A stretch of 27,695 bases of DNA from the IMG/VR virus record IMGVR_UViG_3300045988_163776, positions 128,001 to 155,695 of that record; one strand, given 5' to 3'. Each line of letters begins with the position of its first letter. Position 1 is the stretch's first letter. The DNA comes from a virus. The notes below the pieces were generated by a model. It had not been told where the DNA came from, did not search any database, and saw only the letters and a program-made list of their open reading frames with translations. Of this stretch, positions 1 to 25,759 are shown piece after piece. Both the position numbers and the translations under genes were made by a program.

Positions 1-146
1 CAATGTTGTATTTTGCTATGAAGAAATAATTAGCAAGCTTGGTGAAGCTGGATATCGCATGGGTTGGGATTTTACTGATAAAGCCATTGATAATGGAACT
101 TGGTTTTTGTCAATCCATTGGGACTAATATAAAGGAGGGTTGCGCA

Positions 147-857
147 ATGGCAGTAGCAAAAAGCTTTAAAAATTTTGAAATGTTAAGTGAACCATTTGAG
201 AAAAATAATAAGATGTATGTTATTGTGCGAAACCCTAAAACCCAACATGAACGTACCGTAAGATGGTATACAAGTAAAGAGTATGCTAAGCTCTATCCAG
301 AAGAACAACCAATCACACAAGATTGGAAAAATTTAAAGAATTGTCTTGGTTTTAATAAAGGATATATTACAATATTTAAAAATGCAAGTTATGATGATGA
401 ATGGTGTAATATATCAAATGCGCGTTGGCATGAACGTTGGGGCTGGTATATTGCTTCTACAGAAGAAGTACCCGCAGACTGTCCTTTTGAATATGCTCCC
501 TTGTATTGGACTGATATCTCAAAAAGCGAAGGAGCGTTAAAACCAAAAGAGGAGATTGAACAAATTATTTTTTCAATATTTTATGATAATTCTCCATCTC
601 AATATTTAGGTAATATAGGAGATAGAATTGAGCTGGAAGCTGAAATTATAAGTATTGAGAAAGTAGAAACTGCATATGGGGTAAAAGCAAAATATACTCT
701 TTGTGATGAGAAAGGAAATATGCTAGAATGGTTTACTGGAGTAAGAAAAGACTGGTTTAGAGGTAATAAGAAGAATCTTCGAGGCACAGTAAAAGAATTA
801 AAAAGGAAATATGGAATTAACACAACAGTTTTAACAAGATGTTTAGAAAGGAGATGA
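147..857 (+). CDS. hypothetical early protein
   Basis: Long ORF ending TGA at 857. ATG at 147 is preceded by RBS AAAGGAGGG (about 132-140); the track start at 39 lacks an RBS. No recognisable motif. Confidence 0.6.
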   Translation: MAVAKSFKNFEMLSEPFEKNNKMYVIVRNPKTQHERTVRWYTSKEYAKLYPEEQPITQDWKNLKNCLGFNKGYITIFKNASYDDEWCNISNARWHERWGWYIASTEEVPADCPFEYAPLYWTDISKSEGALKPKEEIEQIIFSIFYDNSPSQYLGNIGDRIELEAEIISIEKVETAYGVKAKYTLCDEKGNMLEWFTGVRKDWFRGNKKNLRGTVKELKRKYGINTTVLTRCLERR

Positions 858-863
858 GGTAAT

Positions 864-1022
864 GTGATCGAAATAATTACATTTATAATTTGGATAATCA
901 TAGGCGTATCAAATTTTTTCTTTTGTCTTGCTGGCTTAGCGCCAACTTGGATAACATTTTGGAGCGCTTATGGTTGCGTAATTATTAGTTTACTCGAAAA
1001 ATATATTAATAATAAAAAATAA
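864..1022 (+). CDS. small hydrophobic (membrane) protein
   Basis: GTG start 6 nt after a GGAG/GAGG stretch. 52 aa and very hydrophobic (VIEIITFIIWIIIGVSNFFFCLAGLAPTWITFWSAYGCVIISLL...). Ends TAA at 1020-1022. Confidence 0.35.
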   Translation: MIEIITFIIWIIIGVSNFFFCLAGLAPTWITFWSAYGCVIISLLEKYINNKK

Positions 1023-1051
1023 TTGATATTTTATAAAAAATATTATATAAT
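1023..1051 (+). promoter_or_regulatory. sigma70-like promoter, conserved phage early promoter family
   Basis: TTGATA, 17 nt, TATAAT, followed by ATATATATAATAAAAGAAG. Member of a 13-copy family in this window. Confidence 0.7.
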
Positions 1052-1091
1052 ATATATATAATAAAAGAAGTTGAAAAGAGGTTGATTTAAA

Positions 1092-2735
1092 ATGTCATTG
1101 ATGAATATGATTAGTAAAGAGGAACAAGAGTTAATTTCAGCTTATAGAGAAGCTTATATAGGAAGTCATACAGAATCACTTTGTGATAATGAATATCTAT
1201 TAAGAGTATGGCAAGAAGAAAAATCTAAATTCCTTGCTAAAATTTTTAAAGATAGCCTAATTCTTAAAAAAGAAGTTGTAGTTAAGTTACCACATGAAAT
1301 GATCGCCGTAGAAATGGATGGAAAATTATGTTATTATCCTCGTAGAGATGGTTATGTGGATCCTGGAACTCCAAAAGGCTTTATAAGACAGCTAATGAAC
1401 TTAGTCGATGAATTATGTGAAAAAGATTGTATTGATTGGGCTTTAAGAAATGCCATGCGTAACATAAATGGAGATCTTTTAGCAGACAATAGATTTATTG
1501 ATAGATGGGATCCAGATCATAAAAGAAATTTTAAAGTGACTCATCCTTCAGATAAAAGAAAAAGTTTCACTATTTCTTATGGAATGAAATTAATGAAAGT
1601 ATATAATAAATTTGCTACTGCTTTTGGCATTGCAGGTTTTGATGAATATGCAGTCGTTCATTCTCAAATTTTAAATACGACTAATCTTAAAGGAACGCTA
1701 TGCTTGTCAATACATCCTTTAGATTATATGACAATGAGTGATAACAACTCAAATTGGACTTCTTGTATGTCTTGGGAAGGTGACGGCGAGTATAGACAAG
1801 GCACTGTAGAAATGATGAACTCTGATTGTATTGTTGTAGGTTACCTTGAGTCTTCAGCTCCTATGAATATATTAGGAGCAAAATGGAATAACAAAAAATA
1901 TCGTAGTTTATACTGCGTTAATGAAGATGTTATAGCCAATATAAAAGGTTACCCTTATAAAAGCTTAGAGATTGATAAAATAGTTATTGATTGGCTAAAA
2001 GAATTAGTTGAAGCCAATACAGATATCAAATATGAGAGTGATATTATAGATTTTAATAGTGACGAAAATGATTATTATTTAGATTTTCATACTCATATTA
2101 TGTATAATGACTGCTGGAATACAAAAGGCTGTAGAACATGTCATATAGGCTATGTAAGCAATTTAGCATCACATAATTGTTATGTTCATTATTCTGGACC
2201 TGATGAATGCATGTGTTGTGGAGCAGTTGGAGTTATGGAAGAGTGCAGTGAAAGTGATTTGGTTTGCGATTCCTGTGATGGCTATGAGTATTGCGATCAT
2301 TGTGGAGATAGATGCAACTTTGGTGAAACTCATCATATTGATGGATATTCTCTTTGCAGTTACTGCTATGATGAAGCTGTTGCGCAAGACTTCTTTGATG
2401 AAACAGAGCATTTAGAAAATAATATGGTACAAGCAAAAATTAATGTTGACGCTGAAAGCGGAATGTTCATTCGCTCACATTCTGTTTATAGTATTTTTAT
2501 TGATATAAAAAATATAGAAAAATTTATCTCTGTATGCCCTAAAATTTTTAAAGAAGAAAAAATGTCTTCTTATAAGATCTTTTCTGAAGAAAGTTTTTAT
2601 TATGAAGGGAAAATAATAGAGATTAACTGGAATGACCTTTCTGATTATGGTTGGAAATTTTTCTTTAAAGAAAATGATGCGATGATTGAATCAGTTAAAT
2701 TATTCTGTAAACGTTATGAAGAAGCTAAAATTTGA
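1092..2735 (+). CDS. Cys-rich zinc-ribbon protein, paralog family A (function unknown)
   Basis: 547 aa ORF with an RBS. Central motif LCLSIHPLDYMTMSDNNSNWTSC...GEYRQG...WNNKKYR is shared with the 5291-6667 product. C-terminal cluster of CxxC pairs (CMCCGAVG...CDSCDGYEYCDHCGDRC...CSYC) indicates zinc ribbons. Confidence 0.8.
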   Translation: MSLMNMISKEEQELISAYREAYIGSHTESLCDNEYLLRVWQEEKSKFLAKIFKDSLILKKEVVVKLPHEMIAVEMDGKLCYYPRRDGYVDPGTPKGFIRQLMNLVDELCEKDCIDWALRNAMRNINGDLLADNRFIDRWDPDHKRNFKVTHPSDKRKSFTISYGMKLMKVYNKFATAFGIAGFDEYAVVHSQILNTTNLKGTLCLSIHPLDYMTMSDNNSNWTSCMSWEGDGEYRQGTVEMMNSDCIVVGYLESSAPMNILGAKWNNKKYRSLYCVNEDVIANIKGYPYKSLEIDKIVIDWLKELVEANTDIKYESDIIDFNSDENDYYLDFHTHIMYNDCWNTKGCRTCHIGYVSNLASHNCYVHYSGPDECMCCGAVGVMEECSESDLVCDSCDGYEYCDHCGDRCNFGETHHIDGYSLCSYCYDEAVAQDFFDETEHLENNMVQAKINVDAESGMFIRSHSVYSIFIDIKNIEKFISVCPKIFKEEKMSSYKIFSEESFYYEGKIIEINWNDLSDYGWKFFFKENDAMIESVKLFCKRYEEAKI

Positions 2736-2760
2736 AAAAGTTAAAAAAATAATGTATAAT
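2732..2760 (+). promoter_or_regulatory. sigma70-like promoter (conserved family)
   Basis: TTGAAA, 17 nt (AAGTTAAAAAAATAATG), TATAAT. Confidence 0.65.
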
Positions 2761-2804
2761 AATTATAGAAAATAAATAATAAAGAAGAAAGGATGTTGAA
2801 AAAC

Positions 2805-3224
2805 ATGACTGAGAAGACAAAAAAGATAACAAAGAGAGACATTTATGAAGCAATTGCGCAGGCAATGGAAACTGGTGAAAGCACCATTGAGCCACAAGAA
2901 ATCATTAATTTCTGTCACAAGGAAATTGCAGCCCTTGACCGCAAAGCTGAAAAAGCAAGAGAAAATGCAGCGAAAAAACGTGAAGAGGGAGATGCTCTAC
3001 TAGAGCTTGTAAGAAATGCTCTTACAGACGAATATTCAATTATCGCTGATATTACGGCTCGTATTGAAAGTGATGAAGTCGAAGTAACAGTAGCCAAGGT
3101 TCAGTATAGACTTAATCAGCTAATCCAAATGGGTGAAGCTGAAAAGTCAGACGTTTCAGTCGGAGAAACTGGTTCAAAAAGAACTCTTAAAGGCTATCGA
3201 AAAATAGCAACTATTGAAGACTAA
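2805..3224 (+). CDS. hypothetical coiled-coil protein
   Basis: ORF 2793-3224. The ATG at 2805 has better spacing from RBS AAAGGA than the ATG at 2793. Charged, helical, K/E/A-rich. Ends TAA. Confidence 0.6.
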   Translation: MTEKTKKITKRDIYEAIAQAMETGESTIEPQEIINFCHKEIAALDRKAEKARENAAKKREEGDALLELVRNALTDEYSIIADITARIESDEVEVTVAKVQYRLNQLIQMGEAEKSDVSVGETGSKRTLKGYRKIATIED

Positions 3225-3235
3225 TTATTGTTTAA

Positions 3236-3270
3236 AAAGGAGTAGAAATTTTATCTACTCCTTTTTTTTC
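3236..3270 (+). terminator. rho-independent terminator
   Basis: GGAGTAGAAATTTTATCTACTCC hairpin followed by TTTTTTTTC. Confidence 0.8.
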
Positions 3271-3339
3271 TTTTATCTGCTCCGGCCGGATACGCACATA
3301 AACACCGCAAATCCAAAGAAAAATGGATTTAGAAAATTT

Positions 3340-3368
3340 TTGACAAAATTCTTAATTTATGGTATTAT
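3340..3368 (+). promoter_or_regulatory. sigma70 promoter
   Basis: TTGACA, 17 nt, TATTAT, directly upstream of the 3390 gene. Confidence 0.7.
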
Positions 3369-3389
3369 AAAAATGAAGGAGTGATAATA

Positions 3390-4193
3390 ATGAAATATTC
3401 ATTACCAAATAGAATATCATTACAATATTTAAAGCAAGCAGATGAAATAAAAATACAAAAATCTGATTGCGAGAAAACAATAGATTATATAGAAGATTAT
3501 CCAGAAGCAGAAATAGTATTATGTATAGAAGATCTAAAACAACAATTTTCAGGAAATGAAGAGGTCATTACGAATACATTGAAAATGTATAAAGAAGAAA
3601 GTAATAAAAAATTTAGTATAGAGCTAGAGCATTTAAATGAAGATGTTGCGTTATTAAAAAAATTGGAAATTCCTTTCTTCTGGAAATATCCAGTGACTAC
3701 TTTTGATGAATTGCAAGCTTTAAAGGAATTAGGAGTTTCACAAGTATTAATAGATGGTCCTCTCTTTTTTCAGATGAGAGAAGTAAAGAGATTTCATATT
3801 CCAATTAGAGTAATTCCAAATGTATGTTACGAGAACTATCTTCCAAGAGCAAATGGTTTGCATGGAACTTGGATGCGCCCGCAAGATCAAGATTTATATG
3901 ACCAATATGTTTCTATTTTAGAATTTAAAGAAAAAGATTTCACCAAATTAGAAGCCTTATTTGACATATATTCTAAAGATAAAACATATTTTGGAGATTT
4001 GAATACATTATTTACAAATTTTGGTTTTACTATTCCTATACTTGCGGCAGCAGTACCTCGAGATGTCATTAAGTCTAGATTAAACTGTGGTCAACGCTGT
4101 ACACAGAATCGTTGTCACTTATGTGAGCGAGGATTGTCTGTTGGTTTACAAGTGCAGACAAGTGAGTATATTAGAGTAAAAGAGCAAAATTGA
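3390..4193 (+). CDS. hypothetical protein
   Basis: ORF with RBS AAGGAG 9 nt upstream of ATG 3390 (a GTG at 3381 is also possible). C-terminal CGQRCTQNRCHLCERG Cys cluster. Ends TGA. Confidence 0.7.
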   Translation: MKYSLPNRISLQYLKQADEIKIQKSDCEKTIDYIEDYPEAEIVLCIEDLKQQFSGNEEVITNTLKMYKEESNKKFSIELEHLNEDVALLKKLEIPFFWKYPVTTFDELQALKELGVSQVLIDGPLFFQMREVKRFHIPIRVIPNVCYENYLPRANGLHGTWMRPQDQDLYDQYVSILEFKEKDFTKLEALFDIYSKDKTYFGDLNTLFTNFGFTIPILAAAVPRDVIKSRLNCGQRCTQNRCHLCERGLSVGLQVQTSEYIRVKEQN

Positions 4194-4218
4194 TTTTTTA
4201 TTAAAAATATTATATAAT
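4190..4218 (+). promoter_or_regulatory. sigma70-like promoter (conserved family)
   Basis: TTGATT, 17 nt, TATAAT. Confidence 0.65.
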
Positions 4219-4268
4219 TATTATAGAAAAAAATGAAAAAAATAATTATATAAGGGGTGTTTATAGAT

Positions 4269-5294
4269 ATGCTTACTTTTTCAGAACAGCAATTTAAAAC
4301 TTTTAAGCAAATTGCCCAGTTAAAACAATCTGGTTTGAAAAAGGTTTTAGTGTCTTTCTTAAGAAAACATTATAGCCAAAACCGAGTTTTTTACTCTGAG
4401 CATTATATTTATGCTATTGGAGATATTCCTATTGCATTAGTGGCGCATTTAGACACTGTTCATAAAAAAATTCCAAGTCAAATATTTTGGGACAGAGAAG
4501 AAGATGTGGTTTGGAGTCCCCAAGGGTTAGGGGCAGATGATAGGGCTGGAGTATATGCTATTATGCAGATTATTTCTTCTGGACTACGACCTCACATTAT
4601 TTTTACGACAGATGAAGAAATTGGTGGAATAGGAGCTATTTTATTATCTAAACGAACAAATCCTTTTGCAGATTTACGTTATATGATAGAGCTTGACCGC
4701 AGAGGTTTTACAGATTGTGTTTTTTATGATTGTAATAATAAAGATTTTGAAAAATATATAGAATCTTTTGGATTTGAGACAGATTGGGGCACCTATTCAG
4801 ATATCTGCGAATTAAGTCCAAGCTGGAAAATTGCAGGTGTAAATTTATCCATAGGATATTTTAATGAGCATTCTTTCGCAGAGTATTTAGAACCTAATAT
4901 ATTAATGAATACTATAAAAAAAGTTAAAGAGATGTTAAAAACACCTAAAGAAGATATTCCTGTGTTTAAATATATTCCTTATAAATCTTCTAAACCGGGT
5001 TTTGTTTACGACACAGATGAAAATTATAAAAAATTAGCTTTAGCTTATGGATATAATTTTTATGATGATGAGATAGGAATAATTTGTTCAGGTTGCCATG
5101 AAGCATTTTTTGAAGATGAAGTATTCCCAGTAAAAAGTGTTGATGGAACTACGAAATATTATTGTCCAGATTGTGTTACAGATAATATAGAATGGTGCAT
5201 TAGGTGTAATGAGCCTTTTGAAAAAGAAAATCCAGAAGATACTAATATATTATGCAAAGATTGTAGAAAAATTAAGGAGGCTTCTTCTAAATGA
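4269..5294 (+). CDS. M20/M28/M42-like metallopeptidase-fold protein with C-terminal zinc ribbon
   Basis: Motifs resemble zinc aminopeptidase families: ALVAHLDTVHKK, GLGADDRAGVYAIMQ, FTTDEEIGGIGA. C-terminus CSGCH...CPDC...CIRC...CKDC resembles the zinc ribbons of the flanking paralogs. ATG 4269 follows RBS AAGGGG. Confidence 0.55.
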   Translation: MLTFSEQQFKTFKQIAQLKQSGLKKVLVSFLRKHYSQNRVFYSEHYIYAIGDIPIALVAHLDTVHKKIPSQIFWDREEDVVWSPQGLGADDRAGVYAIMQIISSGLRPHIIFTTDEEIGGIGAILLSKRTNPFADLRYMIELDRRGFTDCVFYDCNNKDFEKYIESFGFETDWGTYSDICELSPSWKIAGVNLSIGYFNEHSFAEYLEPNILMNTIKKVKEMLKTPKEDIPVFKYIPYKSSKPGFVYDTDENYKKLALAYGYNFYDDEIGIICSGCHEAFFEDEVFPVKSVDGTTKYYCPDCVTDNIEWCIRCNEPFEKENPEDTNILCKDCRKIKEASSK

Positions 5295-6667
5295 GTTGTT
5301 TATTTACAATAGCAAAACAATTTGAACAGGTAATTGATTATTCTCAAGGATTTAAACCGGCACAATCAAAACAAGTTATAAAACAATGGTTTAAAGCTAA
5401 AAAACCTTTCATAAAAAAATTAGGTGGTTTTATATATGAATATCCAGAAACTATAACAACAGATTTATCAGATGCAGAAAAAAGAATGAAAATTAGTGAT
5501 TTTACTGACTGGGTAGAAAGAAAATATGGCTTATATGATTTATCTAATTTTATTACAGCAAATGAAAAAACTTTTTTTGAAAATGCAGTAGCAGAAGAAT
5601 ATAAATATAAAGGTATTATTATACCAAAAGGAATGAAATTATTAAAAGCTTTTAAATATTTTGAAGAGAATAAAGATATTTTAAACGATATTCAAAATGT
5701 GGCAAGTATGTCTATACAAGAAAATAAAATTTCTGGAAAACTATGTTTATCAGTGCATCCACTAGACTTTTTATCCAGTAGCGAGAATACTCTTAATTGG
5801 CGGTCTTGTCATGCCCTTGACGGAGAATATCGCGCGGGGAATTTAAGCTATATGCTTGATGGGAGTACAATAATTTGTTATTTAAAGACAGATGAAGAAG
5901 TAAAGCTTCCACGTTTCCCCTCAAGCGTACCTTGGAACAATAAAAAATGGCGTTGTTTATTATTCTTTTCAGAAAATAATAAAATGATGTTTGCGGGACG
6001 CCCTTATCCATTCGCTGCAAATGGACTTTTAAATAAAATAAGAGATATAGTTCAAGAATTAAAATTGATTGAAGTATTAAATCAACCTTATTGGAGAAAA
6101 CAATACCTTAGCGAATGGCGAAATGATTATGTTGATACTTTTAATTTTTCAGATGGGACACAAGTTAAATTAGAGAGTAGGTTTATTTTAGATTGTTATA
6201 GTGAACTAGTACGTCTGGAAGAAATAATAACAAATGGACAAGGAAGTTGTCATTATAACGATTTGCTATATTCTTCTTGTTATGTGCCTTATTATGTTCA
6301 AGTAGAGTCTGGAGATCATGTCCCAAAGTATAAAAACTATTTTAAAATTGGAGCTAGAACTTTATGCCTTAATTGCGGGAAGTATGAAATATCAGACCCA
6401 GATTCAATGCTATGTGAAGACTGTCTTGATTATTATGATTCAGAAGATTGCTTAGATGAAACATTCTGTTCTGAATGCGGAGCAATAGTTGAAGAGGGTG
6501 AAGGAGAGTTTGCTGCAACAGGGGAGTTTTTATGCCCTCATTGTATAGAAGAATATACCCAAAGATGCTATAAATGTAATGCACGATATTATCAAAATGA
6601 TATGTCTGTTGTTCGAGATGAAGATAATACTCATGTACATTGGATTTGTGCAAATTGTAAGGAATAG
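5291..6667 (+). CDS. Cys-rich zinc-ribbon protein, paralog family A (function unknown)
   Basis: 458 aa. ATG overlaps the previous stop (ATGA) and follows RBS AAGGAGG. Shares LCLSVHPLDFLSSSENTLNWRSCH...GEYRAGN...WNNKKWR with the 1092-2735 product, and a C-terminal CxxC-rich region. Terminates at TAG 6665-6667, with an in-frame TAA 11 codons downstream. Confidence 0.8.
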   Translation: MSCLFTIAKQFEQVIDYSQGFKPAQSKQVIKQWFKAKKPFIKKLGGFIYEYPETITTDLSDAEKRMKISDFTDWVERKYGLYDLSNFITANEKTFFENAVAEEYKYKGIIIPKGMKLLKAFKYFEENKDILNDIQNVASMSIQENKISGKLCLSVHPLDFLSSSENTLNWRSCHALDGEYRAGNLSYMLDGSTIICYLKTDEEVKLPRFPSSVPWNNKKWRCLLFFSENNKMMFAGRPYPFAANGLLNKIRDIVQELKLIEVLNQPYWRKQYLSEWRNDYVDTFNFSDGTQVKLESRFILDCYSELVRLEEIITNGQGSCHYNDLLYSSCYVPYYVQVESGDHVPKYKNYFKIGARTLCLNCGKYEISDPDSMLCEDCLDYYDSEDCLDETFCSECGAIVEEGEGEFAATGEFLCPHCIEEYTQRCYKCNARYYQNDMSVVRDEDNTHVHWICANCKE

Positions 6668-6689
6668 GAAGAAGAGGAGGAAGAATATT

Positions 6690-7001
6690 ATGGCGGCTAA
6701 AGGAACAGAAGCGAAAAATTTAGTTATTTCAAAAATTAAAGAAGCCTTTGGAGAAGATTATATTTTAACAGAAGGCAGTAAAGTCTATGTGTGGGCAGAA
6801 GATGGAGCTAATGGTAGAGTGCAAATAGCTATGACTTTAACTTGCCCAAAAGTAATGGTTGGCGAATGTGCATCAGTTGCAGTAGTTGGCAATCAGTTGG
6901 ATTTTGAAGCAGAATTGCCGCATGCACAAGTGGACTCTGCGCAAATAACTGAACAGGAAAAAAATAATATTGAAGAACTCATGAAACGTTTGAATCTATA
7001 A
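6690..7001 (+). CDS. hypothetical protein
   Basis: RBS GAGGAGG then ATG 6690. 103 aa. Ends TAA. Confidence 0.65.
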   Translation: MAAKGTEAKNLVISKIKEAFGEDYILTEGSKVYVWAEDGANGRVQIAMTLTCPKVMVGECASVAVVGNQLDFEAELPHAQVDSAQITEQEKNNIEELMKRLNL

Positions 7002-7039
7002 CACTATATTATTAAGAAATAAAATTTGTGGTCATTTTT

Positions 7040-7085
7040 GTTCTAAGAGAAAGTAATAATTTTTAAGAATATTACTTTCTCTTCT
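7040..7085 (+). terminator. long hairpin (putative terminator)
   Basis: AAGAGAAAGTAATA...TATTACTTTCTCTT, a 14-bp perfect inverted repeat downstream of the 6690 gene. Confidence 0.5.
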
Positions 7086-7100
7086 GGATAAAAATTATAT

Positions 7101-7129
7101 TTGAAAATTTAAAAAAAATATAATATAAT
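7101..7129 (+). promoter_or_regulatory. sigma70-like promoter (conserved family)
   Basis: TTGAAA, 17 nt, TATAAT, then ATATATGTAATAAAGATAAAAAAC. Confidence 0.65.
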
Positions 7130-7171
7130 ATATATGTAATAAAGATAAAAAACAAAAAAAATAAAAACTTT

Positions 7172-7200
7172 TTGATTTTTATAAAAATTTATTATATAAT
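7172..7200 (+). promoter_or_regulatory. sigma70-like promoter (conserved family)
   Basis: TTGATT, 17 nt, TATAAT, then ATATATGTAATAAAAAAG. Confidence 0.65.
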
Positions 7201-7249
7201 ATATATGTAATAAAAAAGAAAAGTTAATTTTTTAAATAAAAAATCTTAT

Positions 7250-7278
7250 TTGAAAAATTAAAAAAAATATTATATAAT
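7250..7278 (+). promoter_or_regulatory. sigma70-like promoter (conserved family) at the head of the tRNA array
   Basis: TTGAAA, AATTAAAAAAAATATTA, TATAAT. Confidence 0.7.
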
Positions 7279-7307
7279 ATATATATAATAAAGATAAAAA
7301 ATAAATA

Positions 7308-7380
7308 TCATCTTATGGTGCAAAAGGATAGCACACTGTTGTACAGCAGAGATAAAGGTTCGAATCCTTGAAAGATGATC
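7308..7380 (+). tRNA. tRNA-like gene, anticodon arm non-canonical
   Basis: Acceptor CATCTTA/AAAGATG. D-arm GTGC-AAAAGGATA-GCAC is nearly identical to the tRNA-Gln D-arm. T-arm AAGG-TTCGAAT-CCTT. The anticodon region CTGTTGTACAGCAG folds only with a 6-nt loop, so isotype is unresolved. Confidence 0.4.
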
Positions 7381-7384
7381 TATT

Positions 7385-7700
7385 TAGTAAAATGGTTTAT
7401 AATTTAAGTTTTCCGGAAAAACTTAGTACAATCATTGGATTTATATTATGAGTTCGAGTCTCATTAGCTTGCTACAGTAAAGGACGAATATAAAAACTTA
7501 AAATGTATTAGAGGTCAGCTCTGTGGTGAGAGTGAGTACTAAGATACAGGAGATTGGAAGTAAGCAATACACACCACTGAGCTTACTTTTGAGAGATATG
7601 AGATAGAACCTCCTCGTGGTTTCTCTCGGGCAATGCCTTAATAACTTTTGTTTATAGTTAATATGGTAGCAAATCTATCTTTACCCCTTTCCTTATAATA
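7385..7700 (+). ncRNA. uncharacterised structured non-coding region (several hairpins, tRNA T-arm-like fragment)
   Basis: No ORF. Hairpins AAGTTTTCCGGAAAAACTT, AAGTAAGC...GCTTACTT and GAGAG...CTCTC. Also an isolated ATGAG-TTCGAGT-CTCAT T-arm-like element without a matching acceptor stem. Confidence 0.3.
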
Positions 7701-7855
7701 CTTAAAAAAAAGACAGTATCAGCAAATGAAATGCGTTAAATTAGGGATTTAAAGTGCTTTTATAAAACTGTCTTGTAATATGGTTCTATGGTTTAAGAAA
7801 TTAAAGTACTGTTTTATCATAGTAGAGCTTAAATCTCATAGAACCACCATTATAT

Positions 7856-7928
7856 AGTGATGTAGTTCAGTTGGCAGAACACCTCTCTAATACGGAGGAA
7901 GTCATAGGTTCAAACCCTATTATCACTA
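7856..7928 (+). tRNA. tRNA with anticodon AAT by manual fold (Ile-type?)
   Basis: Good cloverleaf: acceptor AGTGATG/TATCACT, D-arm GTTC-AGTTGGCA-GAAC (same as the tRNA-Lys copy), anticodon stem CCTCT/GGAGG with loop CTAATAC, T-arm ATAGG-TTCAAAC-CCTAT. A34 is unusual for a bacterial-type tRNA. Confidence 0.55.
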
Positions 7929-8522
7929 TCTTGTGTCGTCGTCAGCGACTATAAATAACTGTGCAGGTTCCCGTGCGATAGCGGATGTGCAAGCTAATCC
8001 ACAAACATACTATCGCCTATATTCCTCTATAGCTCAGCTGGAGGAGCCAAATACATTGAATTGAGGGTATTAGTCCTCAATTCAATGTTCTAAAGGGATA
8101 GAGAATTTGACTTTTAATTAAGTTCTCTAGGTTCGAATTTTTATATCGACTTTTGCAATAAATCATTCGAGAGGAAGTGCGACTCGACATTACAGAGAAA
8201 TCTCAAACGTGATAAAAACGGCGTCTAAAGTCATGACAACAAACGCCATCTATAATGTGACGGATGGTATAAAGGTTGATTTGCTGTAAAAGTTGATATA
8301 GAGATTCTATTAGTTATTTATAAATTCTATTATGAAAAATACTAGTTCACCTTATATAAAATTTAAAGATTATAAGGCTTGAACAAAATAATTTTATATT
8401 TTATATAGCAGGCGGTAGGTGAAGTCATCTTTTCAGCCTCATAAGCTGAAGTAACCGGGAGCATTACCCGGGCCTGTTCCCATTAAACGTTCATTACTTA
8501 GAAGAAAGGGGAAGTGACAAAT

Positions 8523-9014
8523 ATGGCTAAAGAAATTGAAAGAAAATTTTTATTATCTCATCTTCCAAAAATCAAGGCGGATGAAATGTGGTATGTGGAA
8601 CAAGCATATATCTCAGTAGAGCCAGAAGTGAGAATACGAAACAAAAAACCTATGACAGGTTACTTCCCTGGGTCTTATTATAACAAATATTTAATGACAA
8701 TTAAAAGCGATGGTTCTTTAATAAGAGATGAAATTGAAACCCCTATTTATGAAAATTTTTATAATGAAACTATTGGTTTTATAAATAAAGAGCCAATTAA
8801 AAAGGAATACTTTGTTTATAATATAGATAATTTGCAATTGGAAGTATCAATAGTTGATAAAGAAACAGACTATAGTTTTATTTATGCAGAGGTTGAGTTT
8901 CAATCAGAAGAAGAAGCTAAAGCTTTTAAATTTCCTTTTCCAGAAATTCTTATTGAGGAAATTACTTATCAATCAGATTATAAAATGAAAAATTATTGGC
9001 TTAATAGCCGATAA
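8523..9014 (+). CDS. CYTH-domain (triphosphate tunnel metalloenzyme, CyaB/ThTPase-like) protein
   Basis: N-terminus MAKEIERKFLL matches the hallmark ExExK start of CYTH domains. 163 aa. RBS AAAGGGGAAG. Confidence 0.5.
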   Translation: MAKEIERKFLLSHLPKIKADEMWYVEQAYISVEPEVRIRNKKPMTGYFPGSYYNKYLMTIKSDGSLIRDEIETPIYENFYNETIGFINKEPIKKEYFVYNIDNLQLEVSIVDKETDYSFIYAEVEFQSEEEAKAFKFPFPEILIEEITYQSDYKMKNYWLNSR

Positions 9015-9035
9015 TTTTAAATCAAATATTTATAT

Positions 9036-9064
9036 TTGAAAAATTAAAAAAAATATTATATAAT
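9036..9064 (+). promoter_or_regulatory. sigma70-like promoter (conserved family)
   Basis: TTGAAA, AATTAAAAAAAATATTA, TATAAT, then ATATATGTAATAAAAAAGAAAGGAG. Confidence 0.7.
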
Positions 9065-9098
9065 ATATATGTAATAAAAAAGAAAGGAGTTATTGATT

Positions 9099-16886: not shown

Positions 16887-16973
16887 TGGGGATTGGTGTA
16901 ATTGGCAACACGCGGGACTCTAAATCCCGAGCTTCTGAGGCGAAAGTTCTGGGTTCGAACCCCAGATCCCCAG
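16887..16973 (+). tRNA. tRNA-Sup (anticodon CTA, reads UAG); type II-like with long variable arm, G73
   Basis: Acceptor TGGGGAT/ATCCCCA (perfect 7 bp). D-arm GTGT-AATTGGCA-ACAC. Anticodon stem CGGGA/TCCCG with loop CT-CTA-AA (U33, A37). Variable region of about 19 nt (AGCTTCTGAGGCGAAAGTT). T-arm CTGGG-TTCGAAC-CCCAG. No encoded CCA. Confidence 0.7.
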
Positions 16974-17036
16974 CGTCATCAAGTAGAAGCCTTTACGTGG
17001 CGATGATATTTAAACTAATTCTACAACATTAAATTA

Positions 17037-22306: not shown

Positions 22307-22751
22307 TATGGCACAAATTAAAAAATTAAAGCAAGGGGAGACAACGATTTTCCCAATGACAGATGCAAGTGCTGTACAATACGCAGGTAAAACTCTCTCG
22401 GATATGACCGGGGGGGGTCTATAGTACCCAACCCGTAAAAATTGGCACTTGGATTAATGGAAAGACAATATATAGAGAAATAAAAGAAATAGATTTTGCA
22501 TAGATAGATAAAACAGCGGACCATTTTTCATCAAATCTATCAGATTTTGGTATTTCTATAACAAAGACTGGAGGTTTACTTAATTTATATATTATAAGTT
22601 TTGCTTTTCCTTTAGATTCTGCAACTAATCAAGAAATTGGGTTTGTTTATACGCCAAATGAATTTTTAAAAGGTATAAAAGATGGGAATATAACAGAGTC
22701 ACTGTTTATTGAACCAATATATGCAATTATTACTTATGTTTCTTTAGACTA
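22307..22751 (+). CDS. tail-fibre-like protein paralog 2; reading frame interrupted at a G8 homopolymer (+1 shift needed)
   Basis: RBS AAAAGGAGAG then ATG 22307. N-terminus MAQIKKLKQGETTIFPMTDASAVQYAGKTLSDMTGGG. The G8 tract at 22409-22416 leaves this frame ending at TAA 22454-22456. The +1 frame is coherent (VYSTQPVKIGTWINGKTIYREIKEIDFA-Q-IDKTADHF...EPIYAIITYVSLD) to TAA 22749-22751. Confidence 0.55.
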
Positions 22752-22812: not shown

Positions 22813-23265
22813 ATGGCACAAATTAAAAAATTAAAAGACAATAATAATAATACAATATATCCAATGACACAAGCATCAGCAGTTTTTCTTAATAATGGAG
22901 AACAGCTTAGTGATTATTATTTAATTAAAGATATGGTTGCGTCTAATAAAGGCGTATCTGATTTATTCAATAATAGGATATATTTTAATGATGTTGGATC
23001 TCCAATAAAAGATCCAACTTTATATTTAATAAAAATAAAAGTAAATGGTCAACAACAGCTTACTTATTATGAAAATCCATTGAATGGCTATATTGCTTCT
23101 GATTTTGATAGTGACACTGGATTTTCAACTTCGCCATTAATGGTTACTAGTTTTACAGATGGGAAAATATACAAAACAACCAAAGAGTTTTCTTTTATCT
23201 ATGATAAAAGTGATAATTCTGCTGATCTAGAAACTGGGCAAAATGATTTAATAAGTAGTTTATAG
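22813..23265 (+). CDS. tail-fibre-like protein paralog 3 (intact, no G tract)
   Basis: RBS ATAAGGAG. N-terminus MAQIKKLKDNNNNTIYPMTQASAVF is homologous to the two frame-broken paralogs. 150 aa. Ends TAG at 23263-23265, followed by TGG then GAC. Confidence 0.65.
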   Translation: MAQIKKLKDNNNNTIYPMTQASAVFLNNGEQLSDYYLIKDMVASNKGVSDLFNNRIYFNDVGSPIKDPTLYLIKIKVNGQQQLTYYENPLNGYIASDFDSDTGFSTSPLMVTSFTDGKIYKTTKEFSFIYDKSDNSADLETGQNDLISSL

Positions 23266-23311
23266 TGGGACAGCATTTGAGTAAAAATAAAAAAAGGAGA
23301 GTAAGCATAAG

Positions 23312-24241
23312 ATGCAATTAAAGTATTCTCATGGCGCATTACTTTCTCCAAAAGATGATAGAGATTATTAGTTTACAGATTTGATTGCGGGAGTTCGTTT
23401 AAGCGAGCTCCCTTCTGAGTATATAAATCCTTTAGTTCATAATGTTCCTGTTGTGGATTAGGGGTAGTCAGAAACTTGCGTAGCTTGCTCATTAACGTAT
23501 TTACGCTGGCTAACCGAACGGACGCAATCAAACAATGAAAAACAATTCTCACCAAGCTATATCTACGGCAATAGAGATAGCTTTGGATACATGGGAGAAG
23601 GTATGATAGTGCGTGAAGCACTTCAAACTTTAAGAAAGCAAGGAGTTTGTTATTATGAAGATCTACCTGGTTTTTATGATGTACAGACTTCAATTAAACA
23701 ATATAGACAAAACAGAGATACGCTTGATCCTAAAGCATATCCTTTCAGAATTTCATCATTCTATGCAGTTAGTGGAATAGAAGGAATTAAGAATGCAGTT
23801 TATAATTTAGGCGGAGTAATAGTTAGTTATCCAGTTTATTATTGTCTATATTCTCCAGATAAAGAGGGAAAAATTCAATTTGATAATAGTGTGTAGAATT
23901 TCCAAAATGGTTATCACGCAATGACTATAGTAGGATGGACTTCTACACATTGGATAGTTCTTAATTCTTGGGGAAAGAACTGGGGTAAAGATGGAATCTG
24001 CTACATTCCTTTTAGTTATCCAATAGCAGAAGCTTGGGGAATAGTAGATCAAATTACGGAGGTTATATTTAAAATGGCAAAATTTATTGATACAGAAGGT
24101 CATTGGGCAGAACAGGCTATTGATAAGGCTGCTGACAAAGGTGTTGTAAGTGGCTTTGAAGATGGGCTATTCCATCCAGATGAACCAATCACAAGAGCAT
24201 AGTTATGTTCAATCCTTGATAGACTAGGATTGTTTAACTAA
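23312..24241 (+). CDS. papain-like (C1 family) cysteine peptidase with C-terminal SLH domain; 6 in-frame TAG codons including both catalytic-motif Gln
   Basis: RBS AAAAAGGAGAG then ATG 23312. VVD-[TAG]-G-[TAG]-SETCVACS reproduces the papain DQGQ..C..C active-site motif only if TAG is Gln. Downstream YHAMTIVGW (His) and VLNSWGKNWGKDGICYI (Asn-Ser-Trp-Gly, the NSWGxxWG motif) follow. The C-terminus FIDTEGHWAEQAIDKAADKGVVSGFEDGLFHPDEPITRA-Q is an SLH-domain consensus. Further TAGs at 23369, 23894 and 24200. Ends TAA 24239-24241. Confidence 0.75.
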
Positions 24242-24248
24242 TGAAAAT

Positions 24249-24287
24249 GCGGGCCGGTCGCAAGACTGGCCCATTTTCTCTTTTAAA
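24249..24287 (+). terminator. rho-independent terminator
   Basis: GGGCCGGTC-GCAAGAC-TGGCCC followed by ATTTTCTCTTTT. Confidence 0.7.
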
Positions 24288-24414
24288 CAACTTACGCACT
24301 TCGTTTGACTATTTATTTATTTTTTGATATGATAAATATATAAGAAAATAAATAAGGAATTAAGCAATACTAATATACAGAGTATTAGATAAAATAGCAA
24401 GGAGAATAATTAAA

Positions 24415-24522
24415 ATGAAATTATATATTTACAAGTGGGACAATGATACTTTTATAGGAAGCAATAAAGGCTATATGGTAAAATATGAAGAAAAGCAGAG
24501 GTTTATAGATGCTATCTCTTAA
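24415..24522 (+). CDS. small peptide (35 aa) immediately upstream of and overlapping the radical SAM gene; candidate substrate/precursor peptide
   Basis: Strong RBS AAGGAGAATAATTAAA then ATG. MKLYIYKWDNDTFIGSNKGYMVKYEEKQRFIDAIS. The TAA at 24520-24522 overlaps the start of the next gene. Confidence 0.4.
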   Translation: MKLYIYKWDNDTFIGSNKGYMVKYEEKQRFIDAIS

Positions 24523-25759
24523 AGAATATAAAGAAGAATACCATTGTCCAATAATCGCTTGCTTAAACATAACAAATCAATGTAATCTTAAATGTCGCTA
24601 TTGCTTTGTAAATCAGAATCCAGAACGCATGTCTTTTGAAACTGCTACAACAGCAGTAACTTATTTATATAAGAACCTAACTGCGCGACGGGAAAAAACT
24701 GGGAATCCGCACCTAAAAGGCACTATTAATTTTTTTGGTGGTGAGCCACTTTTGGAATGGTCTTTAATAAAACGATTAACAGAATGGATAGAAGAAAAGT
24801 ATGCTAATTGTTTCAATTTAGGCATTACAACTAATGGTACACTATTGAACAAACAAATTATAGATTTTTTATATGAACATAAAATAATACCTTTGTTATC
24901 AATGGATGGGGATAGAGAAACACAAGAATATAATAGACCTTGCAAACTTAGAGGTAGTAGTTTTGATTTGGTTAAAACGCATTTATCTTATCTGCTGGAA
25001 AAATTCCCTAATACAGTATTTCGCATGACTATATATGAGGATACTTGTGATAAATTATTTGATAATATTATATTTGCAGAACAACAAGGCTTTAAGTATT
25101 TCTATGCAACTCCAGATAGTAGACATAATTTTTCTAAAGAAAATTTAAAAAAATTAAAAATAGAATTAGAAAAATTTTATAGTTACTTCACTATTAGTCT
25201 AATAAATGGCATTAAACCAATAGAGAGTAGCTTTATAAGAGATATGTTCCTAGGAGTATTGCGTGAGCCTAGTCTTAAGGTTAATGAACTAGACCAATTA
25301 ATACCAAGAGATATAATGAGATGTGGCCTTGGTACTGTAAGCATTAGTATTAGTCCAGATGGTAGTATATATGGGTGCCAAGAACAAGTAACTAATAATA
25401 AAGAAAATAATCTTTTTTATTTAGGGGATATATATAAAGGAATCGCGGGCGACCACCATATCAAGCTTTTAAGTGAATACAGATCGCTTTCCGCAATCAC
25501 AAGTGAATCCGCAAGTTTATGCGAAGATTGTGGGTATCGTAAATTATGTTATCAAGTTCAATGTCCTTCAATGGCAAAACAAAGATTTGATAATTTTTTT
25601 ATATTGCCAGAGACAATGTGCTTCTGGAATCGAACTTTATATGATTTAACAAAACAAGTTTTATCAATATATAATGAAAATATAGAACGATATTTAACAG
25701 AAATAATTGAGGAGGAAGAGGAATATGAGTTATATTGTAGGAGGAACAACTTATCCTGA
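24509..25759 (+). CDS. radical SAM enzyme with C-terminal SPASM/twitch domain
   Basis: N-terminal CNLKCRYC (CxxxCxxC, the SAM-cluster motif). C-terminal Cys clusters MRCGLGTVSISISPDGSIYGCQEQ and CEDCGYRKLCYQVQCP are typical of SPASM-domain maturases. 416 aa. Confidence 0.75.
   Translation: MLSLKEYKEEYHCPIIACLNITNQCNLKCRYCFVNQNPERMSFETATTAVTYLYKNLTARREKTGNPHLKGTINFFGGEPLLEWSLIKRLTEWIEEKYANCFNLGITTNGTLLNKQIIDFLYEHKIIPLLSMDGDRETQEYNRPCKLRGSSFDLVKTHLSYLLEKFPNTVFRMTIYEDTCDKLFDNIIFAEQQGFKYFYATPDSRHNFSKENLKKLKIELEKFYSYFTISLINGIKPIESSFIRDMFLGVLREPSLKVNELDQLIPRDIMRCGLGTVSISISPDGSIYGCQEQVTNNKENNLFYLGDIYKGIAGDHHIKLLSEYRSLSAITSESASLCEDCGYRKLCYQVQCPSMAKQRFDNFFILPETMCFWNRTLYDLTKQVLSIYNENIERYLTEIIEEEEEYELYCRRNNLS

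What the first reader, a model, noticed from the sequence alone, without database searches (positions are those of the whole stretch)
23312..24241. Papain-like C1 peptidase fused to an S-layer-homology (SLH) domain, with its catalytic-site Gln residues encoded by TAG
The Cys/His/Asn triad context (QGQSETCVAC, YHAM, NSWGKNWG) is textbook C1A. The C-terminal FxD..HWA..AID...G...GF.DG.F.P...ITRA is a single SLH repeat, which anchors proteins to the cell wall of S-layer-bearing Gram-positive bacteria. A phage-encoded, wall-targeted papain-like peptidase is unusual; phage lysins are usually CHAP, NlpC/P60 or amidases. It could act on S-layer or peptidoglycan stem peptides during entry or lysis. The SLH domain gives a host clue: a low-GC Firmicute with an S-layer.
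Basis: partly seen in the sequence, partly recalled or inferred. Interest (0 to 1): 0.7.

Follow-up and report, generated by a model that had tools for sequence, protein, structure and literature searches.

The report
Papain-type phage lysis enzyme with SLH anchor
A phage that reads the stop codon TAG as glutamine encodes a papain-family cysteine peptidase joined to a cell-wall anchor (SLH domain); its relatives sit beside holins and known wall-degrading enzymes, so it is most likely a so far untested type of phage lysis enzyme.

Summary
ORF 23312..24241 (+) has 309 codons, five of them in-frame TAG, and ends in TAA. With TAG read as Gln it passes Pfam's own thresholds for Peptidase_C1 and SLH. 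Its predicted fold is closest to xylellain, a short bacterial C1A peptidase. Gln50, Cys56, His202 and Asn218 are conserved. TAG means Gln here: TAG columns hold CAA or CAG in close relatives and in standard-code homologues, no window gene ends in TAG, and a tRNA-CUA with a tRNA-Gln-like acceptor stem lies at 16887..16974. Only Gln50 is catalytic; Gln52 sits in a variable column.

Context points to lysis rather than entry. In nine standard-code phage loci the homologue lies next to a holin and/or an amidase, CHAP, GH25 or M23 hydrolase. Across the clade the same peptidase is fused to SLH, SPOR, Cu_amine_oxidN1 or choline-binding modules, or directly to Amidase_2, glucosaminidase or M23. That is the place CHAP holds in classical endolysins.

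I read it as an endolysin-type enzyme with a C1A catalytic domain and a single SLH anchor. The bond it cuts is unknown. Peptidoglycan peptide is favoured and S-layer protein is not excluded. I found no experimental precedent. It is a new variant of a known kind, of moderate interest.

The parts
23295..23301 (+). Shine-Dalgarno-like AGGAGAG, 10 nt before the ATG
   Evidence: read directly from the sequence
23312..24241 (+). CDS of the C1A peptidase-SLH protein: 309 aa with five TAG codons read as Gln, stop TAA
23312..24049 (+). Xylellain-type C1A peptidase domain, residues 1-246. It includes the invariant N-terminal SPxDxRDY motif (residues 12-19). Pfam's match covers residues 46-232.
23459..23461 (+). 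TAG codon 50 = oxyanion-hole Gln (papain Gln19). It is CAA in the 98%-identical relative L095 and CAA or CAG in all standard-code homologues.
23477..23479 (+). TGC, catalytic Cys56 (papain Cys25), invariant
23915..23917 (+). CAC, catalytic His202 (papain His159), invariant
23963..23965 (+). AAT, Asn218 (papain Asn175) of the NSWG motif, invariant
23369..23371 (+). TAG codon 20 (the Q of RDYQ); CAA in L003, L006 and L010
23465..23467 (+). TAG codon 52, in a variable, non-catalytic column
23894..23896 (+). TAG codon 195, in a variable loop
24089..24238 (+). Single C-terminal SLH domain, residues 260-309, with Trp265, G277-VVS-G281 and T294-R-A-Q297. It is the only SLH in the window.
24200..24202 (+). 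TAG codon 297 = the Q of the SLH TRAQ motif; CAA or CAG in relatives
24251..24282 (+). Intrinsic terminator (9-bp stem with 7 G-C pairs, then a T tract). It ends the late tail-fibre/lysin transcription unit.
16887..16974 (+). Suppressor tRNA with anticodon CUA. Its acceptor stem is like tRNA-Gln (U1:A72, G2-G5, G73). It is needed to translate this gene.

Best explanation
This is an endolysin-type lysis enzyme of a TAG-to-Gln recoded phage of roughly 125 kb, probably infecting a low-GC Bacillota host. A xylellain-type C1A cysteine peptidase serves as the catalytic module. One C-terminal SLH domain serves as the wall-binding module.

Shown here: the domains, the intact Gln/Cys/His/Asn set, TAG = Gln, the absence of a signal peptide, and the gene's place as the last gene of a late operon ended by a terminator.

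Inferred: the protein can be made only once the phage tRNA-CUA suppresses TAG, which delays its appearance to late infection. It accumulates in the cytoplasm and reaches the wall through a holin lesion. The SLH domain, probably as a homotrimer as in LysBT1, docks on the pyruvylated secondary cell-wall polymer. The peptidase then cuts peptide bonds in the wall, alongside a conventional peptidoglycan hydrolase.

I judge peptidoglycan stem or cross-bridge peptides the more likely target. A lysis role of some kind: about 0.8. The full statement including the peptidoglycan target: about 0.5.
For: Domains, fold and catalytic residues.

TAG = Gln:
- In 8 of 13 TAG columns, close or standard-code relatives carry CAA or CAG. 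This includes Gln50, which is TAG in the window and CAA in the 98%-identical L095.
- None of 24 window genes ends in TAG, and TAGs concentrate in the late genes.
- A tRNA-CUA with a Gln-like acceptor stem is present.

Lysis context in standard-code relatives:
- L006: holin_1, C1/SLH, CHAP.
- L008: holin_1, C1/SLH, Amidase_2.
- L011: holin_4_1, Amidase_2, C1/SLH.
- L093: C1/SLH, then holin_4_1 plus Amidase_2.
- L094: C1, holin_4_1.
- L097 and L099: C1, holin_4_1, GH25 (Pfam run on L097 only, L099's neighbours are close homologues by sequence).
- L106: holin_1, C1+Cu_amine_oxidN1, M23.
- Cultured phage THSA-485A: GH25 endolysin, then the C1 peptidase.

Shared anchors: the partner hydrolases in L006 and L008 carry a weak C-terminal SLH match of their own, just below Pfam's cut-off (20.3 and 18.6 bits against 20.8). 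The M23 partner in L106 has a C-terminal tail that resembles by eye the Cu_amine_oxidN1 tail of its C1 neighbour, although Pfam did not call that domain in it.

Fusions across the clade, among 78 longer members: SLH in 24, SPOR in 15, Cu_amine_oxidN1 in 13, Amidase_2 in 2, glucosaminidase+SLH in 1, M23 in 1, choline-binding in 1, PG_binding_1 in 1. BFVD also lists C1-fold phage proteins named 'Peptidoglycan binding-like' and 'N acetylmuramidase'.

A single C-terminal SLH works as a trimerising wall-binding module in the characterised endolysin LysBT1 (PMC12285257). Preferential recoding of lysis genes has been described (bioRxiv 10.1101/2021.08.26.457843).
Against: - No holin or conventional peptidoglycan hydrolase could be recognised next to the gene in the window. 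The same holds for the recoded relatives L003 and L096, where the neighbours are tail-fibre or Peptidase_G2 genes and a radical SAM gene.
- Some homologues (L092, L101, L103, L108) sit among nucleotide-metabolism genes and carry only an amphipathic tail.
- To my knowledge, no member of family C1 has been shown to cleave peptidoglycan.
- From my own knowledge, not checked here: the nearest characterised relative, xylellain, cuts ordinary L-amino-acid peptide substrates.
- Wherever the neighbourhood could be read in full, the homologue came with another hydrolase, so it may not be the enzyme that breaks the sacculus.
- Activity, trimerisation and ligand were not testable here.
Confidence: 0.55

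Rival explanations
1. It is a lysis accessory protease. The SLH domain places the peptidase on the same wall polymer that anchors S-layer and other SLH proteins. The enzyme cuts those proteins, not peptidoglycan. This would remove a proteinaceous outer layer or destroy receptors on cell debris, while the partner amidase, CHAP or GH25 enzyme breaks the sacculus.
For: - Wherever the neighbourhood could be read in full, the homologue was accompanied by a conventional peptidoglycan hydrolase.
- From my own knowledge, C1A enzymes, including xylellain, are protein and peptide endopeptidases. The best known wall-anchored bacterial C1A enzyme, Cwp84 of C. difficile, processes the S-layer precursor (mentioned in abstracts listed).
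- SLH is the most frequent fusion partner in the clade.
- From my own knowledge, the host of THSA-485A is an S-layer-bearing Thermoanaerobacterium.
Against: - The same peptidase clade is also fused to SPOR, choline-binding and PG_binding_1 modules, which target peptidoglycan or teichoic acid rather than S-layer anchors.
- It is also fused in one chain to Amidase_2, glucosaminidase or M23, as dual-activity endolysins are.
- No S-layer requirement for phage release from Gram-positive cells is known to me.
Confidence: 0.22
2. It is a virion-associated enzyme used at entry. It would be carried on the tail and would open the S-layer or wall from outside.
For: In the window and in the recoded relatives the gene is the last one of a tail-fibre or tail-spike block, with no holin beside it.
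Against: - The protein is small (309 aa) and has no tail-attachment or structural domain.
- Homologues in nine standard-code phage loci lie next to holins and/or endolysins.
- In Bacillota phages the lysis cassette normally follows the tail-fibre genes (my own knowledge).
Confidence: 0.08
3. It has another proteolytic role, such as processing a phage or host protein (for example activating the partner lysin or host autolysins). Alternatively it is a decaying pseudogene in a standard-code genome.
For: Some homologues lie outside lysis cassettes. The invariant N-terminal SPxDxRDY segment, shared with xylellain, could be regulatory.
Against: The pseudogene reading is excluded:
- The homology is full-length and uninterrupted across all five TAGs.
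- The catalytic residues are conserved.
- TAG and CAA/CAG interchange between relatives.
- A tRNA-CUA is present, and no gene in the window stops at TAG.

A pure processing role does not explain the range of wall-binding modules fused to the clade.
Confidence: 0.1

Closest known systems
LysBT1, endolysin of a Brevibacillus thermoruber prophage (PMC12285257, 2025)
   Same: It has a catalytic domain followed by one C-terminal SLH domain carrying Trp, GIIxG-type and TRAE-type motifs. The SLH binds the cell surface and mediates trimerisation. The window protein has W265, GVVSG and TRAQ.
   Different: The catalytic domain of LysBT1 is an N-acetylmuramoyl-L-alanine amidase, not a C1A peptidase. LysBT1 comes from a standard-code prophage.
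CHAP-domain endolysins (for example staphylococcal and streptococcal phage lysins; reviewed in PMC10318531)
   Same: They have the papain-like (clan CA) Cys-His fold. They occupy the same module position: N-terminal catalytic domain, optional second hydrolase domain, then a wall-binding domain. Compare P0124 (C1, glucosaminidase, SLH) and P0084/P0102 (C1, Amidase_2).
   Different: They belong to different families (C51/PF05257 against C1/PF00112). Here the papain oxyanion Gln and the Asn of the NSWG motif are present. CHAP activity on peptidoglycan is proven, whereas this clade is untested.
Xylellain of Xylella fastidiosa (PDB 3OIS), a short bacterial C1A peptidase
   Same: It is the best match by both sequence profile and fold (2e-32, and Foldseek 1.5e-16 with TMt 0.76). 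It shares the N-terminal PDxxDxRD[FY] segment.
   Different: It is a chromosomal bacterial protein with no SLH domain and no lysis context, at about 22% identity. Its biological role is unknown (PMC10380794).
Cwp84 of Clostridioides difficile
   Same: It is a C1A cysteine protease held on the Gram-positive cell wall by a non-covalent wall-binding module, and it acts on the S-layer protein.
   Different: From my own knowledge: Cwp84 is secreted with a signal peptide and a propeptide, has a lectin-like domain and three CWB2 repeats, is a host enzyme, and works in S-layer maturation rather than lysis. None of those features is present here.
Tsac_2838 'peptidase C1A papain' of Thermoanaerobacterium phage THSA-485A (NC_018264)
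   Same: It is a homologue from a cultured phage, 35% identical over residues 6-245, encoded directly after the GH25 endolysin gene.
   Different: It has no SLH domain, comes from a standard-code genome, and its function is untested.
TAG-to-Gln recoded gut phages (code 15; bioRxiv 10.1101/2021.08.26.457843; PMC9523058; PMC10607447)
   Same: In-frame TAG occurs in late structural and lysis genes, a phage-encoded tRNA-CUA is present, and early genes are almost free of TAG.
   Different: There is no DNA match to any GenBank phage. The tRNA-CUA here has an unusually long variable region.

Membership tests
Peptidase family C1 (papain), subfamily C1A, short xylellain type | Sequence match to the family model above the curated threshold | tested here: met
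   PF00112 scores 38.1 bits against a cut-off of 20.7. A profile of the family hits 3OIS at 2e-32 and cathepsin K at 8e-16.
Peptidase family C1 (papain), subfamily C1A, short xylellain type | Oxyanion-hole Gln plus catalytic Cys, His and Asn in the papain order | tested here: met
   Gln50 (encoded by TAG), Cys56, His202 and Asn218. Cys, His and Asn are invariant and Gln50 is invariant or nearly so, in alignments of 28, 33 and 78 sequences.
Peptidase family C1 (papain), subfamily C1A, short xylellain type | Papain fold | tested here: met
   The AlphaFold2 model of the 98%-identical homologue P0001 has pLDDT 86.8. Foldseek's top matches are 3OIS, papain, ficins and cathepsins, with probability 1.00.
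Peptidase family C1 (papain), subfamily C1A, short xylellain type | Thiol-dependent, E-64-sensitive peptidase activity | not testable with these tools
   This needs the recombinant protein.
SLH (S-layer homology) domain | Sequence match above the threshold, with the conserved Trp, G-[IV]-[IV]-x-G and TRAE-type motifs | tested here: met
   PF00395 scores 48.1 bits against a cut-off of 20.8. The profile hits the Sap SLH region, 6BT4 and 3PYW. W265, G277VVSG281 and T294RAQ297 are invariant or nearly so in A3. The motifs are as listed in PMC12285257.
SLH (S-layer homology) domain | Three SLH units forming the three-prong spindle, either as tandem repeats or by trimerisation of a single repeat | not testable with these tools
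   There is only one repeat in the protein and in the window. Only monomers could be predicted. LysBT1 sets a precedent for trimerisation. The relative P0068 has three repeats.
SLH (S-layer homology) domain | Binding to pyruvylated secondary cell-wall polymer | not testable with these tools
   This needs a binding assay.
Phage endolysin (canonical, holin-dependent) | Encoded in a lysis cassette next to a holin | tested here: inconclusive
   Not met in the window itself: no holin-like ORF lies within several kb, and the only two-TM small ORF is at 864..1022. Met in homologues L006, L008, L011, L093, L094, L097, L099 and L106.
Phage endolysin (canonical, holin-dependent) | Modular build of catalytic domain plus cell-wall-binding domain, with no signal peptide | tested here: met
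   The order is C1 domain, short linker, SLH. The N-terminus MQLKYSHGALLSPKDDRDY is hydrophilic. The clade swaps wall-binding modules and is fused to other hydrolase domains.
Phage endolysin (canonical, holin-dependent) | Cleaves a bond of peptidoglycan | not testable with these tools
   No C1 enzyme with this activity was found in the searchable literature.
Cwp84-like S-layer processing protease | Secreted zymogen with signal peptide, propeptide, lectin-like domain and CWB2 repeats | tested here: not met
   There is no signal peptide and no CWB2 or other extra Pfam domain, and the protein is only 309 aa. The architecture of Cwp84 is from my own knowledge.
Genetic code 15 (TAG = Gln) phage | In-frame TAG in conserved genes that aligns with Gln, TAG not used as a stop, and a suppressor tRNA-CUA | tested here: met
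   Incorporation of Gln at the protein level is not testable here.

The most novel reading that the evidence does not exclude
The enzyme does not attack peptidoglycan. It is a dedicated 'third-layer' lysis factor for S-layered Gram-positive hosts. The SLH domain would tether it to the S-layer's own anchor polymer, where it cuts S-layer or other SLH-anchored proteins to free progeny or destroy receptors on debris. This would be a functional counterpart of spanins or mycobacteriophage LysB. Its synthesis would be gated by TAG suppression at the catalytic Gln.
Probability: 0.2. Interest if true: 0.8.

Novelty: new variant of a known kind. Interest (0 to 1): 0.5.

Why it matters
Endolysin catalytic domains form a short, well-catalogued list. 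To my knowledge, a papain-family (C1A) module has not been shown to be one of them. Here a whole clade sits in lysis cassettes and carries the usual wall-binding and hydrolase fusion partners. The profile search found 825 cluster representatives at E<=1e-30, though that count includes some proteins that match through SLH repeats only.

If the clade is active on cell walls, it adds a new catalytic class for lysin engineering against S-layer-bearing Bacillota, which are poorly served by current enzybiotics. It would also give short bacterial C1A peptidases, whose biology is almost unknown, a first concrete function.

If the target is instead the S-layer, it would reveal a lysis step not described for Gram-positive hosts.

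The TAG codon at the catalytic Gln is a clean example of how recoding makes a lysis enzyme strictly dependent on the phage suppressor tRNA.

Tried and rejected
I used the 98%-identical P0001 instead.
- A scan of GTDB genomes for prophage copies, to name a host, returned almost only SLH-only matches. The best hit was a truncated copy on an 18-kb contig of a Clostridia MAG (L012), so there is no reliable host.
- Megablast of 25 kb of the window against GenBank phages found nothing.
- I looked for a holin or a second SLH protein in the window. A hydrophobicity scan and an SLH HMM over the six frames found none near the gene.
- I tested whether 26356..27525 (DCSG...H motif) is the partner hydrolase. 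Pfam, PHROGs, NCBIfam and PDB gave no hit. The AF2 model was poor (pLDDT 53) and Foldseek found nothing significant, so this is inconclusive.
- I considered TAG = Ser, Leu or Tyr because the tRNA-CUA has a long variable region. I rejected it because TAG columns are dominated by CAA/CAG and the acceptor stem is Gln-like.
- An exact search for the tRNA's anticodon arm in IMG/VR found nothing.
- Literature searches for a C1 or papain-family endolysin, or for an S-layer protease of phages, found nothing relevant.

Full report
**1. What is in the sequence**

An ATG at 23312 follows an AGGAGAG box. It opens a frame that runs to TAA at 24239..24241. Under the standard code the frame is cut five times by TAG, at codons 20, 50, 52, 195 and 297. 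With TAG read through it is a 309-codon ORF. A frame of this composition stays free of TAA and TGA for 309 codons with probability about 8e-10. A strong intrinsic terminator (24251..24272 plus a T tract) follows the stop codon. A promoter-like site at 24305..24333 precedes the next gene. The ORF is therefore the last gene of a transcription unit. The genes upstream look like tail fibres, including a collagen-repeat protein.

**2. The genetic code**

The window is 31% G+C and carries 16 to 19 tRNA genes. None of 24 curated genes ends in TAG. In-frame TAGs are almost absent from 39..14480 and frequent from 15039 onward.

I made a codon-level alignment of this gene with three recoded relatives and six standard-code homologues.
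- In 8 of 13 TAG-containing columns, other sequences have CAA or CAG.
- At codon 50 the window has TAG. The 98%-identical IMG/VR relative L095 has CAA, and every standard-code homologue has CAA or CAG.

A tRNA with anticodon CUA lies at 16887..16974. Its acceptor stem and D arm resemble the window's own tRNA-Gln(UUG): U1:A72, G2 to G5, and discriminator G. TAG therefore means Gln. This matches published descriptions of code-15 phages, in which late and lysis genes are preferentially recoded.

**3. Domains**

With TAG translated as Gln:
- Pfam Peptidase_C1 scores 38.1 bits (cut-off 20.7) over residues 46-232.
- Pfam SLH scores 48.1 bits (cut-off 20.8) over residues 260-298.
- PHROG 16701 'peptidase' matches at 1e-21.

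A profile of 33 homologues hits xylellain (PDB 3OIS) at 2e-32 over positions 3-236. It then hits cathepsins, and the B. anthracis Sap SLH region with its C-terminal part. The AlphaFold2 model has mean pLDDT 86.8. Its best PDB match is 3OIS, followed by papain, ficins and cathepsins.

Cys56, His202 and Asn218 are invariant, and Gln50 is invariant or nearly so. An N-terminal SPxDxRDY motif, shared with xylellain, is also conserved. Gln50 corresponds to papain Gln19, the oxyanion hole. Gln52 lies in a variable column and is not catalytic.

The SLH part carries Trp265, GVVSG and TRAQ. The last Q is again encoded by TAG. These are the motifs implicated in wall-polymer binding. There is no signal peptide and no second SLH anywhere in the window.

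**4. Relatives and their neighbourhoods**

Fifty-one homologues were found, all from metagenomes and none with an informative name. Among GenBank phages only Thermoanaerobacterium phage THSA-485A has a clear homologue (35% identity). That gene is annotated as a C1A peptidase and lies directly after the GH25 endolysin gene.

In standard-code metagenomic phages the homologue lies in lysis cassettes:

| Locus | Gene order |
|---|---|
| L006 | holin_1, C1/SLH, CHAP |
| L008 | holin_1, C1/SLH, Amidase_2 |
| L011 | holin_4_1, Amidase_2, C1/SLH |
| L093 | C1/SLH, then holin_4_1 plus Amidase_2 |
| L094 | C1, holin_4_1 |
| L097, L099 | C1, holin_4_1, GH25 (Pfam run on L097 only; L099's neighbours are close homologues) |
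| L106 | holin_1, C1 with Cu_amine_oxidN1, M23 |

The partner hydrolases in L006 and L008 have weak C-terminal SLH matches of their own, just below Pfam's cut-off (20.3 and 18.6 bits against 20.8). The M23 partner in L106 has a tail that resembles, by eye, the Cu_amine_oxidN1 tail of its C1 neighbour, although Pfam did not call that domain in it. If these matches are real, the peptidase and the conventional lysin of one phage tend to share the same anchor.

The recoded relatives L003 (a 153-kb contig) and L096 share the window's order: tail-spike or tail-fibre genes, C1/SLH, then a radical SAM gene. No holin is recognisable there. Other, more distant homologues carry only an amphipathic C-terminal tail and sit among nucleotide-metabolism genes.

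**5. The clade as a whole**

A profile search of 1.84 billion representatives gave 825 proteins at E<=1e-30. Some of these are multi-SLH proteins that match through the SLH part only.

Of 78 longer members, Pfam finds:
- SLH in 24, SPOR in 15 and Cu_amine_oxidN1 in 13.
- Choline-binding repeats and PG_binding_1 in one each.
- Fusions in one chain to Amidase_2 (P0084, P0102), to glucosaminidase plus SLH (P0124) and to M23 (P0188).

P0068 has three SLH repeats. BFVD likewise lists C1-fold phage proteins named 'Copper amine oxidase', 'Peptidoglycan binding-like' and 'N acetylmuramidase'. This is the module repertoire of endolysins and autolysins. The C1 domain takes the place that CHAP holds in classical two-activity lysins.

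**6. Interpretation**

The evidence supports an endolysin-type lysis enzyme with a C1A catalytic module and a single SLH wall-binding module. Its translation depends on TAG suppression.

By analogy with LysBT1, the only characterised endolysin with one C-terminal SLH (published 2025), the SLH probably trimerises and docks on the secondary cell-wall polymer.

The bond that is cut is not known.
- The SPOR, choline-binding and PG_binding_1 fusions, and the single-chain fusions with amidase, glucosaminidase and M23, favour peptidoglycan peptides.
- The constant presence of a second, conventional hydrolase, and the protein-directed specificity known for C1A enzymes (my own knowledge of xylellain and Cwp84), keep an S-layer or wall-protein target alive.
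- A role at entry is unlikely. The protein has no structural domain, and its homologues sit beside holins.

**7. Novelty**

A review of the papain family notes that xylellain-type short C1A peptidases were acquired by tailed phages, and that functions of the bacterial short forms are almost unknown (PMC10380794). I found no paper describing a C1 peptidase as a lysis enzyme or as a phage S-layer protease.

The finding is therefore a real, correctly read feature. It is best filed as a new variant of a known kind: a modular phage lysin with an untested catalytic family. TAG recoding of its catalytic Gln fits an already described pattern. Interest is moderate.

**8. Limits**

- No holin or partner lysin could be identified in the window itself.
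- The host is not identified, apart from hints of Bacillota: the holin families in relatives, the SLH domain, low G+C, and a truncated copy in a Clostridia MAG.
- Enzymatic activity, oligomeric state and ligand could not be tested.

Noticed in passing
window 16887..16974: The suppressor tRNA-CUA has a tRNA-Gln-like acceptor stem and D arm, but a 19-nt variable region where type I tRNAs have 4-5 nt. No CCA is encoded. Its anticodon arm has no exact match in IMG/VR.
   Followed up: partly
window 24509..25759 (also L003 11051..12295, L096 5424..6632): A radical SAM gene with a Cys-rich, SPASM-like C-terminus is conserved immediately downstream of the C1/SLH gene in the recoded lineage. It has its own promoter-like site (24305..24333) and contains no TAG. 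Its substrate is unknown. A 35-aa ORF (24415..24522) lies just before it.
   Followed up: partly
window 26356..27525: A 389-aa protein with two TAG codons, an invariant D-C-S-G ... H pattern reminiscent of NlpC/P60, and an N-terminal Cys cluster. It has no Pfam, PHROG, NCBIfam or PDB hit. The AF2 model is poor (pLDDT 53) and Foldseek finds nothing significant. One homologue (P0060) carries PF18013. It could be the missing wall hydrolase, but this is unproven.
   Followed up: partly
window 15039..16001: This gene has the highest TAG density in the window: 10 in-frame TAGs, which is 67% of its Gln codons. It contains repeated 'WHCKCDCG' motifs and has weak DUF2726/DUF5889 matches.
   Followed up: no
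P0162 (homologue; sequence): A LAGLIDADG-containing, intein-like insert sits exactly at the catalytic Cys of a C1 + Cu_amine_oxidN1 homologue (QGSVGS | C...ISGN | CVPHS). An intein in a lysin-type gene would be unusual.
   Followed up: no
window 1092..2735 and 5291..6700: Two paralogous early proteins (547 and 469 aa) share an 'LCLS[IV]HPLD' core and Cys-rich, zinc-ribbon-like C-termini. They have not been annotated.
   Followed up: no
window 22308..22424 versus 22813..23280: A 38-aa ORF repeats the N-terminus (MAQIKKLK...) of the downstream tail-fibre-like gene. It looks like a truncated paralogue or a remnant of module exchange.
   Followed up: no
window 864..1022: This is the only small ORF in the window with holin-like features: 52 aa, two hydrophobic segments and a charged C-terminus. 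It lies in the early region, far from the C1/SLH gene.
   Followed up: no
L006 11003..11803 and L008 6908..7882: The CHAP and Amidase_2 lysins next to the C1/SLH homologues each have one weak C-terminal SLH match, just below Pfam's cut-off. Mixed SLH trimers of two different lysins are conceivable.
   Followed up: no
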